Positions 26,472 through 40,328 of a DNA stretch of 64,000 bases are shown in pieces. The position numbers were made by a program, and so were the translations under genes. Under the pieces are notes generated by a model. The model made no database searches. It was given only the letters and a program-made list of their open reading frames with translations, and was not told the origin of the DNA. The stretch is from Escherichia coli (GTDB lineage: Bacteria > Pseudomonadota > Gammaproteobacteria > Enterobacterales > Enterobacteriaceae): NCBI RefSeq assembly GCF_001677475.2, contig NZ_CP015229.1; one strand, written 5' to 3'. Every line of letters starts with the position of its first letter. The stretch's first letter is position 1.

Positions 26472-26539
26472 ACATAACCCTCAAGTGAAAATGGCTTTTT
26501 TATGTTGTGTATTGTGTTGTGTGTTTGCAGGCTCTTTCA

Positions 26540-26555
26540 TGCAGGTCTTATGCCA
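26540..26555 (-). promoter_or_regulatory. Candidate sigma54 (-24/-12) promoter for argT
   Basis: Minus-strand reading TGGCATaagacCTGCA matches the TGGCAC-N5-TTGCA class with correct GG-to-GC spacing; about 70 bp upstream of argT start. Confidence 0.55.
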
Positions 26556-26736
26556 TCTTGACGACAACAGTAACATTCAACGTTAAATATGTTAATAAGA
26601 CGTTGCATTATTGTCCTGAAGTTGAAGATAGCAGGTATAGCGGTTGAATCGCAGCGTTTCGATTGAATGGCAGAAACAAAATGTCGAGGATTTGATCGCG
26701 GTTGCAAAATTGCCCTGAAACAGGGCAACAGCGGAG

Positions 26737-27306
26737 TTATGCGCCCTGCCAGCGGGCAAAGAGATCTTCAGGAAGCGTTATGGCGAATTGATCGAGTACA
26801 CGGTTAACCGTCTGATTTATCACATCATCAAGGGACTGCGGGCGATGATAAAACGCCGGAACGGGAGGCATAATCACCGCACCGATTTCTGCCGCCTGAG
26901 TCATTAAACGCAGATGGCCTAAGTGCAATGGTGTTTCACGCACGCAGAGCACCAACGGGCGACGCTCTTTCAGCACCACATCTGCCGCACGGGTCAGTAA
27001 ACCATCGGTATAGCTATGGACAATGCCGGAAAGGGTTTTGATTGAACAGGGTAAAATCACCATCCCCAGCGTCTGGAAAGAACCGGAAGAGATGCTGGCG
27101 GCAATATCGCGCGCATCGTGCGTCACATCGGCTAAAGCCTGCACTTCGCGCAGGGAAAAATCCGTTTCGAGGGATAAGGTCTGGCGCGCCGCCTGGCTCA
27201 TCACCAGATGCGTTTCGATATCTGTGACATCGCGCAGAACCTGTAATAAGCGCACGCCATAAATCGCGCCGCTGGCACCGCTGATGCCTACAATGAGTCG
27301 TTTCAT
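26737..27306 (-). CDS. ubiX: Flavin prenyltransferase UbiX
   Basis: 189-aa ORF, N-terminus MKRLIVGISGASGAIYGVRLLQVL. Confidence 0.95.
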   Translation of the reverse strand: MKRLIVGISGASGAIYGVRLLQVLRDVTDIETHLVMSQAARQTLSLETDFSLREVQALADVTHDARDIAASISSGSFQTLGMVILPCSIKTLSGIVHSYTDGLLTRAADVVLKERRPLVLCVRETPLHLGHLRLMTQAAEIGAVIMPPVPAFYHRPQSLDDVINQTVNRVLDQFAITLPEDLFARWQGA

Positions 27307-27400
27307 AAATAGTTGCCCTGTCAGACTTGCAGGCAGACTTTGCAGGATTTCGGCAGGAGTTGCAAGTCAGGGTGCCAGACCGGCACCCTGAGCGAAGGCA

Positions 27401-28918
27401 TCATCCTTCGTTATGCATTTCGAGATTTTCCACTTCGTTCTGACGTTGCACTGCTTTGGCGTCGTCATTACGTAAAGTATCGAGGAAATCGAGGTAGCCC
27501 TGATCAACATCTTTGGTGACGTAGACGCCGTTGAACACCGAGCATTCAAACTGCTGGATATCCGGGTTTTCAGCGCGAACGGCGTCGATCAGATCGTTCA
27601 GATCCTGGAAAATCAACCCGTCAGCACCGATGATCTGGCGAATTTCATCTACTTCGCGACCGTGAGCGATCAGTTCCGTAGCGCTCGGCATATCGATACC
27701 GTAAACGTTCGGGAAGCGAATTTCCGGTGCCGCAGAAGCGAGGTACACTTTCTTCGCTCCGGCTTCGCGTGCCATCTCGATAATCTGCTCAGAAGTGGTG
27801 CCACGGACGATGGAGTCGTCGACCAGCAGGACGTTTTTATCGCGGAACTCGGCGCGGTTGGCGTTCAGTTTACGGCGCACGGACTTACGACGCAGCTGCT
27901 GGCCCGGCATGATGAAGGTGCGGCCAACATAGCGGTTTTTAACGAAGCCCTGGCGGTACGGTTTGCCCAGAATACGAGCAATTTCCAGCGCGATATCACA
28001 CGAGGTTTCCGGGATCGGGATCACCACGTCGATATCCAGATCTTCCCATTCACGGGCAATTTTCTCGCCCAGTTTCGTGCCCATATTCACACGCGCGCTG
28101 TAAACGGAAATTTTGTCGATAAACGAGTCCGGACGGGCAAAGTATACATACTCAAACAGGCACGGATTGCTGACCGGATTGTCAGCACATTGACGGGTAA
28201 ACAACTGCCCTTCTTCAGTGATGTAAATCGCTTCGCCAGGCGCGACGTCACGCAGGAAATCAAAGCCTAGTGTATCGAGCGCAACGCTTTCGGAAGCGAC
28301 CATATATTCTGTGCGGTTCTCGTCAATATCACGTTTTCCCAGTACGAGCGGACGAATCCCGTTAGGATCGCGGAAAGCAACCATACCGTGGCCGATAATC
28401 ATCGCCACACAGGCATACGCGCCGCGGATTAAGCGGTTTGTAGCAGCGATGGCGGCGAAAATGTTGTCGGCTTCCAGCGGGTAGTGGCGGAAGTTGTCCA
28501 GTTCGCTGGCAAAGATATTAAGCAGAATTTCCGAGTCGGAAGTGGTGTTGATGTGGCGGCGTTTTTCTTCAAACAGTTTTTTACGCAACTCGTGAGCGTT
28601 GGTCAGATTGCCGTTGTGGGCAAGCGTAATGCCATACGGGGAGTTAACGTAAAACGGCTGCGCTTCAGAGGCGCTGGAGCTGCCAGCCGTAGGGTAACGC
28701 ACATGACCAATGCCCATATTGCCCTGCAAACGCTGCATATGGCGAGCTTCAAATACATCGCTCACCAGCCCGTTCGCTTTACGCAAACGGAAGCAGTTAT
28801 TGGCATCTATGGTGATGATGCCGGCGGCATCCTGACCGCGATGCTGAAGCACCGTTAAGGCATCATAAATCGACTGGTTAACCGGCATAACACCGGCGAT
28901 ACCGACAATACCGCACAT
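27401..28918 (-). CDS. purF: Amidophosphoribosyltransferase
   Basis: 505-aa ORF beginning MCGIVGI (N-terminal nucleophile Cys). Confidence 0.97.
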
Positions 28919-28954: not shown

Positions 28955-29443
28955 TTACGCTCTGGGCAAGAAACTTGACGAGCTTTGCAGATAATCAAAA
29001 AACCATCTGATGATAAAACTGAACTGCGGGATTAGCTGTGATTTGCTCCAGTCTTCGCTTTTCGACACCCCGGTAAAGGAGTCGAGAAAGAAGAGAATGG
29101 CGGCAACAATCAACACACCGCGCAACGCACCGAAACAGACGCCCAGCACCCGATCGGTGCCTGACAACCCCGTTTTCTCCACCAACTGGCCTATCACGAA
29201 GTTCACGATAGCACCAACAATCAGGGTAGCGATAAACAGTACCGCGATGGCAATCCCATTTCGAACCAGTTCGTCTTCAAAGCCCGTAAACCAGACTGAC
29301 AGGTAAGTGTAGTAATGACTGGCAACAAAGAAAGCACAACCCCATGTCACCAGCGATAACGCTTCACGAACAAAGCCGCGGATCAGGCTAACCAGAGAGG
29401 AAAAAGCAATCACCGCGATTATGGCGTAATCAATCCAGACCAT
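28955..29443 (-). CDS. cvpA: Colicin V production membrane protein
   Basis: 162-aa hydrophobic ORF, first gene of cvpA-purF-ubiX. Confidence 0.93.
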   Translation of the reverse strand: MVWIDYAIIAVIAFSSLVSLIRGFVREALSLVTWGCAFFVASHYYTYLSVWFTGFEDELVRNGIAIAVLFIATLIVGAIVNFVIGQLVEKTGLSGTDRVLGVCFGALRGVLIVAAILFFLDSFTGVSKSEDWSKSQLIPQFSFIIRWFFDYLQSSSSFLPRA

Positions 29444-29500
29444 ATGTGTCCCACGATTTTACGCCCTGTCATCCTGTTCGGGGCGCATTCTAACAGAAAA

Positions 29501-29516
29501 AGAAAACGTTTGCGTA
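29501..29516 (-). promoter_or_regulatory. PurR operator (PUR box) upstream of cvpA-purF
   Basis: Plus strand agaaaacgtttgcgta; reverse complement tACGCAAACGTTTTCT matches the 16-bp PurR consensus; about 60 bp upstream of cvpA start. Confidence 0.75.
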
Positions 29517-29604
29517 GGGATTTCCTTCCCGCGCATCAATAAAAATGGCGCTGAAAAAATATTCAACGCCATCGACTTTTTATGCCTTTGCGGCATCGTG
29601 CAAT

Positions 29605-29695
29605 GCGTGTCGGATGCGGCGTAAACGCCTTATCCGACCTACGGTTCTACCCCTGCGTAGGCCTGATAAGACGCGCCAGCATCGCATCAGGCAAG
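29605..29695. repeat. BIME: two inverted REP elements
   Basis: tgtcggatgcggcgtaaacgccttatccgacctac and gtaggcctgataagacgcgccagcatcgcatcaggc read directly between dedD stop and the cvpA promoter. Confidence 0.85.
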
Positions 29696-29701
29696 ACCGT
29701 A

Positions 29702-30364
29702 TTAATTCGGCGTATAGCCCATTACCACGCCACTTAAGCCAGAAAGTTGCTTCAACTCACCCAGCGAACCTTTCAGCTTATCTTTCGAGGCATCCGGCCC
29801 AACCAGAATACGGGTAATTTTACCCTGCACTGGCGTGGATGGCGACGTATAAACCCGATAACCGGCACCGCGCAGCTTACCGACAATCTCATTCACTTTA
29901 TCGGCATTTTTCAGCGCACCCAGTTGCACAACATAGGCTTTACCCGTCGGTGCAGCTTTTTCTTCCACGACCGGCTTCGGTTCTGGCTTCGGCGCAGGTG
30001 GTGCTTCAACCTTTGGTTTAGGCGGCTCCACCGGTTTCGGCTTCGGTGGGGCGACCGGTGCAGGTTCCGGTTCAAACTCGGTGTTATTGGCTGCAATAGT
30101 GGCCGGATCGAGCGACGGTGCTGCGGCATCACCTGCCCGCACCTCTTCCGCTGCGCCTTCCGGCGGCTGCGTCGGCAACGCCTGGGTGGCGGCTGGCATC
30201 ATATCAGGCTCATCGCGATCGCCCGCTTTTGGAACCAGCGGGATAGCCGCAAACTCATCCTGATAATGTTTTTTCTGCCCGTCCAGAAGCCCTGGAAGTA
30301 CAATCACCCCCAGCGCCACCAGCACGATCGTGCCCACTAACCGATTCTGAAACTTACTTGCCAC
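29702..30364 (-). CDS. dedD: Cell-division protein DedD (SPOR domain)
   Basis: ORF track 29702-30382 begins at a TTG; the in-frame GTG at 30362-30364 gives MASKFQNRLVGTIVLVALG (220 aa); proline-rich linker and C-terminal SPOR-like region; overlaps folC 3' end by 11 nt. Confidence 0.85.
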   Translation of the reverse strand: MASKFQNRLVGTIVLVALGVIVLPGLLDGQKKHYQDEFAAIPLVPKAGDRDEPDMMPAATQALPTQPPEGAAEEVRAGDAAAPSLDPATIAANNTEFEPEPAPVAPPKPKPVEPPKPKVEAPPAPKPEPKPVVEEKAAPTGKAYVVQLGALKNADKVNEIVGKLRGAGYRVYTSPSTPVQGKITRILVGPDASKDKLKGSLGELKQLSGLSGVVMGYTPN

Positions 30365-31655
30365 CGCTTCTCCTCGCGTCAATCACTTCCATGACATGTG
30401 CGACCGTGTGGAAAGAACCACACACCAGCACGGTGTCTTCCGCTTTAGCGTCCGCCATTGCGGCATCCCATGCCTGCGCAACGCTATCAAATGATTTGCC
30501 GTTACCCAAATGCTCAAGCAGTTGTTCTGCCGTGGCACCGCGCGGCCCTTCCAGTGGCGCACAATACCAGTCATCAACCACGCTTTTCAACCAGGCCAGA
30601 GTTCCGGCAATATCTTTATCATGTAGCATACCGATAACCGCCAGCACGCGCCCGTTTTTCGGTAGCGCTTTCATACGCCCGGTGAGATATTCCGCCGCAT
30701 GTGGATTATGCGCGACATCAAAAATAACGCGAGGCGACTCGCTCACAATCTGGAAACGTCCCGGCAAAATTGCGCTGGCAATCCCGTCGCGAATGGCAGT
30801 TTCACTGACCTCCAGCCCGCTGGCACGCAGTGCCGCCAGCGCCGTTGCGGCATTCGGTTGTGGGACAAGCGGCAACGGCAGGTTTTCCAGCGTGCCGTGA
30901 GCATCGCTAAACGCCCAGTCATGATCGGTGACGGAATAGTTCCACTCAACGCCCCGACGTTGTAACAGTGCACCTTTTTCCTGCGCCACATCAGCAATGG
31001 TAGAAGGCATTTCCGGCTCACCGACAATTGCCGGTTTTTCGCTGCGAAAGATGCCTGCTTTCTCGCGACCAATGCTTTCGCGATCTGGCCCCAGCCAGTC
31101 AGTATGATCCAGCGCAATGCTGGTCACCACAGCCACATCAGCATCGACAATATTGGTGGCATCCAGACGACCACCCAGCCCCACTTCCAGAATTACCACA
31201 TCAAGTTGCGCCTGTTTAAACAGCCACAGAGCCGACAACGTGCCGTATTCAAAATAGGTCAGGGAAATATCACCGCGTGCCGATTCAATCTCAGCAAAAG
31301 AGGCGGTGTGAGCCGATTCAATCTCAGCAAAAGAGGCGGTGTGAGCCGATTCCGGCAATTCCTGGCCCTGCACACGAACGCGCTCGGTATAACGCACCAG
31401 ATGAGGCGAACTGTAGACGCCCACTTTGTACCCTGCCACCATCAGAATCGACTCCAGCGTACGGCAGGTGGTGCCTTTGCCATTCGTACCCGCAACGGTA
31501 AACACAAATGGCGCTGGTTTCAGAACGCCAAGACGCGCCGCGACCTGGCTCACGCGCTCAAGGCCGAGATCGATAGTTTTACTGTGCAGGTTTTCCAGAT
31601 AAGAAAGCCACGAAGCCAAAGGCGACGCGGCTTGAGGTGTGCGTTTGATAATCAT
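30354..31655 (-). CDS. folC: Dihydrofolate synthase / folylpolyglutamate synthase, carrying an 11-codon in-frame tandem duplication
   Basis: 433-aa ORF with Mur-ligase P-loop (TVAGTNGKGTT); contains ..SAHTASFAEIESAHTASFAEIES.. from the 33-bp duplication. Confidence 0.92.
   Translation of the reverse strand: MIIKRTPQAASPLASWLSYLENLHSKTIDLGLERVSQVAARLGVLKPAPFVFTVAGTNGKGTTCRTLESILMVAGYKVGVYSSPHLVRYTERVRVQGQELPESAHTASFAEIESAHTASFAEIESARGDISLTYFEYGTLSALWLFKQAQLDVVILEVGLGGRLDATNIVDADVAVVTSIALDHTDWLGPDRESIGREKAGIFRSEKPAIVGEPEMPSTIADVAQEKGALLQRRGVEWNYSVTDHDWAFSDAHGTLENLPLPLVPQPNAATALAALRASGLEVSETAIRDGIASAILPGRFQIVSESPRVIFDVAHNPHAAEYLTGRMKALPKNGRVLAVIGMLHDKDIAGTLAWLKSVVDDWYCAPLEGPRGATAEQLLEHLGNGKSFDSVAQAWDAAMADAKAEDTVLVCGSFHTVAHVMEVIDARRSGGK
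31279..31344. repeat. Perfect 2 x 33-bp tandem duplication inside folC
   Basis: gccgattcaatctcagcaaaagaggcggtgtga at 31279-31311 and again at 31312-31344, followed by an 8-bp partial copy gccgattc at 31345-31352. Confidence 0.95.
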
Positions 31656-39107: not shown

Positions 39108-40328
39108 TTAATCTTTCAGCTTGCGCATTACCAGCGTGGCGTTGGTGCCGCCGAAGCCGAAGCTGTTAGACATAACGGTGGTCAGTTCGCGATCGGTCGT
39201 TTCGGTCACGATGTTCAGACCCGCAGCCTGCTCGTCCAGCTCTTCAATGTTGATGCTCGGGGCGATAAAACCGTGTTCCAGCATCAGCAGAGAGTAGATA
39301 GCTTCCTGTACGCCAGCAGCGCCCAGTGAGTGACCGGTCATGGCTTTGGTTGCAGAAATCGCCGGGCTCTTATCGCCGAACACTTCACGGATAGCTGCCA
39401 GTTCTTTCACGTCGCCAACCGGAGTCGAAGTACCATGAGAGTTCAGGTAGTCGATTGGGGTATCAACACCGTGCATCGCCATCTTCATGCAGCGCACTGC
39501 ACCTTCGCCAGACGGAGCAACCATGTCTGCGCCATCAGAGGTTGCGCCGTAGCCAACGATTTCAGCATAGATGTGAGCACCACGCGCCAGCGCGTGTTCC
39601 AGCTCTTCAACCACTACCATACCGCCACCGCCAGCGATAACGAAACCGTCACGGTGAGCGTCGTAAGTACGGGAGGCTTTTTCCGGGGTGTCGTTGTATT
39701 TAGTAGACAGCGCACCCATCGCGTCGAATTCGCAAGCCATTTCCCAGCACAGCTCTTCACCGCCGCCAGCAAACACGATGTCCTGTTTGCCCAGTTGGAT
39801 CTGCTCTACTGCGTTACCGATACAGTGTGCGGAAGTCGCACACGCGGAGCTGATGGAATAGTTAACGCCATGAATTTTAAACGGCGTGGCGAGGCAGGCA
39901 GAAACGCCGGATGCCATCGCTTTGGTGACCACATACGGGCCAACCGCTTTCAGGCCGCGCGGGCCGCGCATTGCGTCAGCGCCGAATACCTGGAAACGCG
40001 GGGAACCGCCGCCGGAACCTGCAATCAGGCCAACGCGCGGGTTATTCTGGTAAGCTTCCGGAGAGAGGCCTGCATCTGCGATTGCCTGCTCCATAGAAAG
40101 GAATGCATAAATGGATGCGTCGCTCATAAAGCGCACAACTTTGCGGTCAATGAGGCCAGTGGTATCCAGTTTTACGTTGCCCCAGACGTGGCTACGCATG
40201 CCGGAATCCTTCAGCTCCTGAGAGAAAGTGATCCCTGAACGTCCTTCACGCAGAGATGCCAGGACTTCCTGCTGGTTATTACCGATGCTGGAAACAATGC
40301 CCAGGCCAGTAATCACTGCACGTTTCAT
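39108..40328 (-). CDS. fabB: 3-oxoacyl-ACP synthase I (KAS I)
   Basis: 406-aa ORF with KAS active-site region ([14 protein letters not shown]) and His-His motifs. Confidence 0.97.

What the first reader, a model, noticed from the sequence alone, without database searches (positions are those of the whole stretch)
29501..29516. Consensus PurR box in the cvpA-purF promoter
The reverse complement ACGCAAACGTTTTCT matches the PurR operator consensus essentially perfectly and sits between the BIME downstream of dedD and the cvpA start. This fits purine repression of cvpA-purF-ubiX.
Basis: partly seen in the sequence, partly recalled or inferred. Interest (0 to 1): 0.2.

Follow-up and report, generated by a model that had tools for sequence, protein, structure and literature searches.

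The report
Known PurR operator of cvpA-purF

Summary
The motif is real. Its proper 16-bp register is window 29500-29515 (minus strand ACGCAAACGTTTTCTT), one base off the reported 29501-29516. The window is E. coli, and the whole dedD-cvpA intergenic region matches K-12 MG1655 except for two SNPs in the BIME. The 16-mer is the one published as the in vivo ChIP-chip PurR motif of cvpA-purF-ubiX (Cho et al. 2011).

- **PWM test:** a matrix built from the 27 other published sites scores it 22.0 bits, rank 6 of 28. The chance probability is 2e-8 per position, or 0.003 expected per window. The next independent hit in the window is 9 bits lower.
- **Position:** a published capped-RNA start site (K-12 2430799 = window 29479) puts the box at -36 to -21. 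It covers the -35 region and the spacer, upstream of an extended -10 (TGtTAGAAT).
- **Conservation:** box, spacer and -10 are 98-99% conserved in 32 distinct Enterobacterales upstream sequences, against 72-77% for the flanks. Aeromonas keeps a box that abuts its -10.
- **Context:** the BIME is confirmed, and a dedD terminator lies between it and the box.

Verdict: observation confirmed, interpretation supported, already known, low interest.

The parts
29500..29515 (-). PurR operator (PUR box) of cvpA-purF-ubiX: ACGCAAACGTTTTCTT, central CpG at 29508/29507, spanning -36 to -21 relative to the transcription start (centre -28.5)
   Evidence: Sequence. PWM score 22.05 bits, P = 2.2e-8. Identical to the published ChIP-chip motif AAGAAAACGTTTGCGT. 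98% column identity across 32 Enterobacterales sequences. Position relative to +1.
29487..29495 (-). Extended -10 promoter element TGtTAGAAT (TG at -16/-15, hexamer at -13 to -8) of the cvpA promoter
   Evidence: Read directly from the sequence. The hexamer is 99% conserved. The spacing to the mapped start site is computed. The simple -35/-10 scan found no canonical promoter, which fits a promoter with a weak -35 and an extended -10.
29480..29486 (-). G+C-rich discriminator GCGCCCC (-7 to -1)
   Evidence: Sequence, position. A role in stringent control is inferred from general knowledge and was not tested.
29479..29479 (-). Transcription start site (+1, G) of cvpA-purF(-ubiX), giving a 36-nt 5' UTR
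   Evidence: The SMRT-Cappable-seq supplement of PMC6131387 lists start 2430799 (reverse) for b2313|b2312(|b2311). It maps to window 29479 by exact 31-mer match.
28955..29443 (-). cvpA coding sequence (162 aa), first gene of the operon
   Evidence: ORF list and annotation in E. coli genomes.
27401..28918 (-). purF coding sequence (505 aa, amidophosphoribosyltransferase), the regulated purine-pathway gene
   Evidence: ORF list and annotation.
26737..27306 (-). ubiX coding sequence (189 aa), third gene of the operon
   Evidence: ORF list, K-12 annotation, and transcripts b2313|b2312|b2311 from the same start site.
29534..29573 (-). Intrinsic terminator of the upstream accD-folC-dedD transcript: hairpin 29573-29544 plus T-run, with the published 3' end at 29540
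   Evidence: Terminator scan and inverted repeat I4. The published 3' end 2430860 maps to window 29540. The hairpin is conserved with compensatory changes in Morganellaceae.
29608..29693 (.). BIME: two REP elements in opposite orientation downstream of dedD
   Evidence: Inverted repeats I1-I3 and I5. The REP core CTTATCNGNCCTAC occurs 8 times in the window against 0.13 expected. The 901-nt query has a median of 5 places per E. coli genome.

Best explanation
The 16-bp sequence at window 29500-29515 is the operator of the E. coli cvpA-purF-ubiX operon, known in the literature as the purF operator. When hypoxanthine or guanine is abundant, the PurR dimer (LacI/GalR family) binds this imperfect palindrome with its corepressor. 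The site spans -36 to -21, covering the -35 region and the upstream spacer next to an extended -10 (TGtTAGAAT). Bound PurR therefore competes with RNA polymerase and blocks transcription initiation, lowering synthesis of PurF, the first enzyme of de novo purine synthesis, along with CvpA and UbiX. Shown here: the sequence, its PWM score, its position relative to a published start site, and its conservation. Taken from the literature: PurR occupancy, EMSA binding and crystal structures. Inferred from the geometry: that repression works by steric exclusion of RNA polymerase.
For: - **Identity with the published site:** the intergenic region matches K-12 MG1655, where AAGAAAACGTTTGCGT is the ChIP-chip PurR motif of cvpA-purF-ubiX, occupied only with adenine added and called previously characterised.
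- **PWM:** the leave-one-out score is 22.05 bits, rank 6 of 28, top of the window by about 9 bits, P = 2.2e-8.
- **Position:** the published start 2430799 equals window 29479, which puts the box at -36 to -21 upstream of TGtTAGAAT. Cho et al. state that PurR sites generally lie between -35 and -10.
- **Conservation:** every Enterobacterales cvpA locus retrieved without reference to the box has a box of at least 17.9 bits 69-74 nt upstream of the ATG. Column identity is 0.98 for the box, 0.99 for the spacer and 0.99 for the -10, against 0.72 and 0.77 for the flanks.
- **Aeromonas:** it keeps a different PurR-like box (15.6 bits) at a different register, abutting its -10.
- **E. coli population:** the 60-mer is 100% identical and single-copy in 5326 of 5425 E. 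coli genomes.
- **Binding and structure:** PurR shifts a cvpA-purF fragment in EMSA. PurR-purF operator crystal structures are cited, and full-length PurR has more than 20 PDB entries.
Against: Nothing found here contradicts it. There are three limits. Conservation alone cannot separate operator function from promoter function, because the spacer and -10 are just as conserved. No binding or expression experiment was done on this strain. The purR gene lies outside the window, so its presence in this genome is assumed from species identity (98.1% identical to K-12 over 10 kb).
Confidence: 0.97

Rival explanations
1. The block is conserved only because it is the core promoter (-35 region, spacer, extended -10), and its resemblance to a PurR box is incidental, so PurR does not act here.
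For: The spacer and -10 are as conserved as the box. The box overlaps the -35 position.
Against: A match of 22 bits has a chance probability of 2e-8 per position. The -35 region of an extended -10 promoter needs little sequence, and ACGCAA/TACGCA is a poor -35. ChIP-chip occupancy and EMSA binding are published for this identical sequence. Aeromonas keeps a PurR-like box with a different sequence at a different register.
Confidence: 0.01
2. The site is mainly the target of another LacI/GalR-family repressor that shares the central AAACGTTT core, such as Cra or RbsR, rather than PurR.
For: LacI-family operators share a central CG and A/T-rich inner half-sites, and the central 8 bp here would fit several of them. 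This rests on general knowledge, with no tool result in favour.
Against: The outer half-site bases (ACGC...) are the PurR-specific ones, and a PWM built only from PurR ChIP sites scores the site in the top quartile. PurR occupancy is adenine-dependent in vivo. The study that used Cra fragments elsewhere chose this fragment as its PurR target.
Confidence: 0.01
3. Besides blocking initiation, operator-bound PurR also acts as a roadblock against transcripts that read through the dedD terminator from promoters in folC or accD. The site would then serve two purposes.
For: Published long-read transcripts start inside folC (K-12 2431937 = window 30617) and continue through dedD into cvpA-purF. PurR is known to work as a roadblock at purB and purR.
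Against: There are no data on whether these read-through transcripts respond to purines. The terminator 25 nt upstream already ends most upstream transcripts at 29540. This adds to the main explanation rather than replacing it.
Confidence: 0.15

Closest known systems
E. coli K-12 purF operator (PurR site of cvpA-purF-ubiX; Makaroff and Zalkin 1985; Rolfes and Zalkin 1988; Cho et al. 2011)
   Same: The 16-mer is identical, and so is the whole promoter region from the dedD terminator to cvpA. It has the same position relative to the mapped start site.
   Different: Nothing in the operator or promoter differs. The only differences from K-12 in the intergenic region are two SNPs in the BIME.
Other promoter-overlapping PUR boxes of the E. 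coli pur regulon (purT, purHD, purL, purMN, purC, purEK)
   Same: All are 16-bp imperfect palindromes with a central CG, have comparable PWM scores (17-25 bits), and overlap the core promoter.
   Different: The promoter-proximal half-site is GTTTTCTT rather than GTTTGCGT. The T in place of G at position 13 is invariant in all 32 Enterobacterales sequences, while Morganellaceae restore G at position 15.
PurR roadblock operators (purB, purR) and the upstream carAB PUR box
   Same: Same repressor and same motif.
   Different: Those sites lie inside coding sequence or about 128 bp upstream of the start and act by blocking elongation or with helper proteins. This one lies at -36 to -21 and can act by simple promoter occlusion.

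Membership tests
PurR operator (PUR box) | 16-bp imperfect palindrome with a central CpG matching ACGCAAACGTTTGCGT / ACGNAAACGTTTGCNT | tested here: met
   The site matches 14 of 16 positions of the ideal palindrome and 13 of the 14 defined positions of the ChIP consensus. The central CG is at 29508/29507.
PurR operator (PUR box) | PWM score within the range of experimentally supported PurR sites | tested here: met
   The leave-one-out PWM gives 22.05 bits, rank 6 of 28, where published sites range from 6.3 to 25.4 bits. P = 2.2e-8 per position.
PurR operator (PUR box) | Located in the control region of a purine or nucleotide metabolism operon, typically overlapping the core promoter | tested here: met
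   The box spans -36 to -21 relative to the published capped-RNA start of cvpA-purF-ubiX.
PurR operator (PUR box) | Conserved upstream of orthologous genes in related genomes | tested here: met
   Every Enterobacterales cvpA locus retrieved has the box 69-74 nt upstream of the ATG. Box column identity is 0.98 against 0.72-0.77 in the flanks. Aeromonas has a relocated box.
PurR operator (PUR box) | Physical occupancy by PurR, dependent on the corepressor (hypoxanthine or guanine) | not testable with these tools
   This is published for the identical K-12 sequence: a ChIP-chip peak seen only with adenine added, an EMSA on a cvpA-purF fragment, and cited PurR-purF operator crystal structures. Sequence identity to K-12 was tested here.
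BIME (paired REP elements) | Two REP units in opposite orientation in an intergenic region, belonging to a family repeated around the genome | tested here: met
   The REP arms are at 29608-29643 and 29656-29693. The REP core occurs 8 times in the window against 0.13 expected. The query has multiple places per E. coli genome.
Intrinsic (Rho-independent) terminator | G+C-containing hairpin followed by a T-run, with RNA 3' ends in the T-run | tested here: met
   The hairpin is at 29573-29544 and is followed by TTTTTATT. The published accD-folC-dedD 3' end maps to 29540.
Extended -10 sigma-70 promoter | TGn motif immediately upstream of a -10 hexamer, with the start site 6-8 nt downstream of the hexamer | tested here: met
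   TGtTAGAAT lies at 29495-29487, and the start at 29479 leaves a 7-nt discriminator. The TGn motif and hexamer are retained in all 32 aligned sequences. Sigma-factor dependence was not tested.

The most novel reading that the evidence does not exclude
The invariant 29-bp block may be a composite element whose asymmetric promoter-proximal half-site (the T at operator position 13 is fixed in all Enterobacterales sampled) is constrained by both PurR affinity and promoter spacer function. The operator may also act as a purine-dependent roadblock against transcripts that read through the dedD terminator. The inverted repeat that begins in the discriminator, and stays complementary while its sequence differs between lineages, may mark a further control feature not yet described.
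Probability: 0.1. Interest if true: 0.3.

Novelty: already known. Interest (0 to 1): 0.07.

Why it matters
It matters mainly as a positive control. The first-stage reader recognised a textbook regulatory site from raw sequence, and the second stage recovered its full anatomy: operator, extended -10, start site, upstream terminator and BIME. PurR repression of purF is the founding example of the pur regulon and of LacI-family structural work, so confirming it here adds no new biology. The cross-genus footprint gives a clean picture of how tightly the operator and promoter are coupled in Enterobacterales, and shows that Aeromonas reaches the same overlap with a shifted box.

Tried and rejected
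- **Chance match:** rejected by the leave-one-out PWM, shuffles and an exact P-value.
- **Simple promoter scan:** it found no canonical promoter. Reading the sequence together with the published start site explains this as a TGn extended -10 with a poor -35.
- **Original papers:** Rolfes and Zalkin 1988 and He et al. 1990 are not in the library. I relied on later open-access papers that cite them.
- **Cappable-seq supplement:** PMC4782308 had no rows near this locus. The SMRT-Cappable-seq supplement did.
- **Hairpin after the -10:** RNAalifold predicted nothing on the MAFFT alignment. Single-sequence folds were no better than shuffles, with z from +0.70 (Morganella) to -1.83 (Proteus). The 5' arm lies upstream of +1, so I do not claim it as an RNA element.
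- **Non-E. coli origin:** I considered this because of about 5% divergence in folC, but the window is 98.1% identical to K-12 over 10 kb.
- **Other PWM hits:** those at 39911, 2409 and 13498 score at levels expected by chance.

Full report
**Observation.** The + strand at 29500-29516 reads AAGAAAACGTTTGCGTA, and the minus strand reads TACGCAAACGTTTTCTT. The canonical 16-bp register is 29500-29515, so the reported interval is shifted by one base. Against the ideal palindrome ACGCAAACGTTTGCGT there are two mismatches, both in the half-site nearer the promoter. Against the ChIP-derived consensus ACGNAAACGTTTGCNT there is one mismatch.

**Where the window comes from.** The ORFs around the site encode DedD, CvpA, PurF and UbiX, all on the minus strand. 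The 901-nt stretch matches 5,425 of 5,426 complete E. coli genomes under those annotations, and the window is 98.1% identical to K-12 MG1655 over 10 kb. Between dedD and cvpA it differs from K-12 at only two positions, both inside the BIME. The operator, promoter and 5' UTR are identical.

I took the 28 motif instances in Table 1 of Cho et al. 2011 (PMC3159470) and built a PWM from the 27 sites other than cvpA.
- The cvpA site scores 22.05 of a possible 25.53 bits and ranks 6th of 28 when every site is scored leave-one-out.
- It is the best hit in the window. The next independent hit scores 13.2 bits.
- Twenty shuffled windows peaked at 11.3-19.3 bits.
- The exact tail probability is 2.2e-8 per position, which gives 0.003 expected in this window and 0.2 in a whole E. 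coli genome.

**What is known about it.** Cho et al. list AAGAAAACGTTTGCGT as the PurR motif of the cvpA-purF-ubiX ChIP-chip region. The peak appeared only with adenine added, and they count the site among those characterised earlier. PurR shifts a cvpA-purF fragment in EMSA (PMC5829826). PurR-purF operator crystal structures are cited in PMC6245113 and PMC3877293, and E. coli PurR matches more than 20 PDB entries, including 1pnr, 1wet and 1qpz. The founding papers (Makaroff and Zalkin 1985; Rolfes and Zalkin 1988) appear in these reference lists but could not be read here.

**Anatomy and mechanism.** The SMRT-Cappable-seq supplement (PMC6131387) gives a capped 5' end at K-12 2430799 (reverse) for b2313|b2312(|b2311), and a 3' end at 2430860 for b2316|b2315|b2314. 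Exact 31-mer mapping puts these at window 29479 and 29540. Relative to the start site, the elements are:

| Element | Window coordinates | Position relative to +1 |
|---|---|---|
| PurR box | 29515-29500 | -36 to -21 (centre -28.5) |
| TG of extended -10 | 29495-29494 | -16/-15 |
| -10 hexamer TAGAAT | 29492-29487 | -13 to -8 |
| Discriminator GCGCCCC | 29486-29480 | -7 to -1 |
| cvpA ATG | 29443 | +37 |

The simple -35/-10 scan found no canonical promoter, which fits an extended -10 promoter whose -35 region is taken up by the operator. The hairpin at 29573-29544 with its T-run ends the upstream transcript at 29540. The BIME lies beyond it at 29608-29693. The inference is that corepressor-bound PurR on -36 to -21 excludes RNA polymerase from the promoter. 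This agrees with the general statement in Cho et al. that PurR sites lie between -35 and -10.

**Comparative evidence.** I scanned the species-representative genome collection with a pattern anchored on cvpA codons 1-7, not on the box.
- Every Enterobacterales locus with enough upstream sequence (Enterobacteriaceae, Pantoea, Morganella, Proteus, Providencia, Arsenophonus) has a strong PurR box 69-74 nt upstream of the ATG. Most score 21.9 bits; the range runs from 17.9 bits in Arsenophonus nasoniae up to 25.5 bits (ACGAAAACGTTTGCGT) in the other Morganellaceae.
- Control regions 250-500 nt upstream scored at background levels.
- In 32 distinct sequences, column identity to the window is 0.98 for the box, 0.99 for the spacer and 0.99 for the -10. 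It is 0.72 in the upstream flank and 0.77 in the 5' UTR.
- Aeromonas has a different box (GCGCAATCGTTTTTGT, 15.6 bits) that abuts its TAGACT -10 directly. The overlap of operator and promoter is kept even though the register changes.
- Shewanella, Colwellia, Idiomarina and Rheinheimera show no box.
- Within E. coli, the 60-mer around the box is 100% identical and single-copy in 5326 of 5425 genomes.

**Rivals.**
- Promoter-only conservation cannot be ruled out from conservation alone. It is excluded by the PWM probability, the published occupancy and binding data, and the relocated Aeromonas box.
- A different LacI-family repressor has no support.
- A second role as a roadblock against read-through from folC-internal starts remains possible but is untested.

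**Side observations.**
- An inverted repeat begins directly after the -10 and stays complementary while its sequence differs between lineages. Its 5' arm is upstream of +1, RNAalifold finds nothing, and the folds are not better than shuffles. I leave it unexplained.
- folC carries a perfect 33-bp in-frame tandem duplication that none of the 5,426 complete E. coli genomes has.

**Verdict.** The feature is the textbook purF operator, already known, and of low interest beyond serving as a positive control.

Noticed in passing
window 31279-31352 (folC, minus strand ORF 30354-31655): A perfect 33-bp in-frame tandem duplication adds 11 residues to FolC (433 aa against 422 in K-12). None of the 5,426 complete E. 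coli genomes carries it: the best hits span 118 record bases for the 151 query bases. It is either a strain-specific variant or an assembly artefact.
   Followed up: partly
window 29461-29486 (minus strand), just downstream of the -10 hexamer: An inverted repeat GCGCCC...GGGCGT starts right after the -10. The equivalent position in Arsenophonus (ACCTTC/GAAGGT), Providencia (GCACT/AGTGC) and Proteus (GCTTC/GGAGC) is also self-complementary but with different sequences. The 5' arm is the discriminator, upstream of the mapped +1. RNAalifold and shuffle z-scores give no support. Unexplained.
   Followed up: partly
window 39911-39926 (minus strand), inside the fabB ORF 39108-40328: ACCAAAGCGATGGCAT is the motif Cho et al. 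2011 assigned to their weak fabB-mnmC ChIP region. Its leave-one-out PWM score is only 8.1 bits, and about 8 hits of that score are expected by chance in the window. The motif assignment looks no better than chance.
   Followed up: partly
window 29534-29573 (minus strand): The dedD terminator hairpin sits only about 25 nt upstream of the PurR box and is conserved across Enterobacteriaceae. Morganellaceae have a compensated, different stem (GCGGCGAT...ATCGCCG). Published long reads also show transcripts from inside folC (window 30617) reading through it into cvpA-purF.
   Followed up: partly
window 29444-29701 (dedD-cvpA intergenic region), + strand: Maciag et al. 2011 (PMC3141248) list this intergenic region as transcribed in vitro in the direction opposite to cvpA. 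It sits in their sigma-70/sigma-S run-off microarray table with a ratio of 1.71; which sigma factor the ratio favours was not established from the excerpt read. No promoter for it was sought here.
   Followed up: no
loci L002, L003, L005, L010-L013, L018-L020 and similar (Shewanella, Colwellia, Idiomarina, Rheinheimera): cvpA orthologues in these Alteromonadales-type genomes have no PurR-like box within 250 nt upstream (best scores below 6 bits). In Aeromonas the box is moved about 7 nt closer to the -10. Whether purR is present in those genomes was not checked.
   Followed up: no
window 26537-27400, K-12 2428683 (between purF and ubiX): Published SMRT-Cappable-seq rows give a cvpA-purF transcript 3' end between purF and ubiX, so part of the operon's transcription stops before ubiX. 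The position could not be mapped to the window by exact 31-mer because of local SNPs.
   Followed up: no
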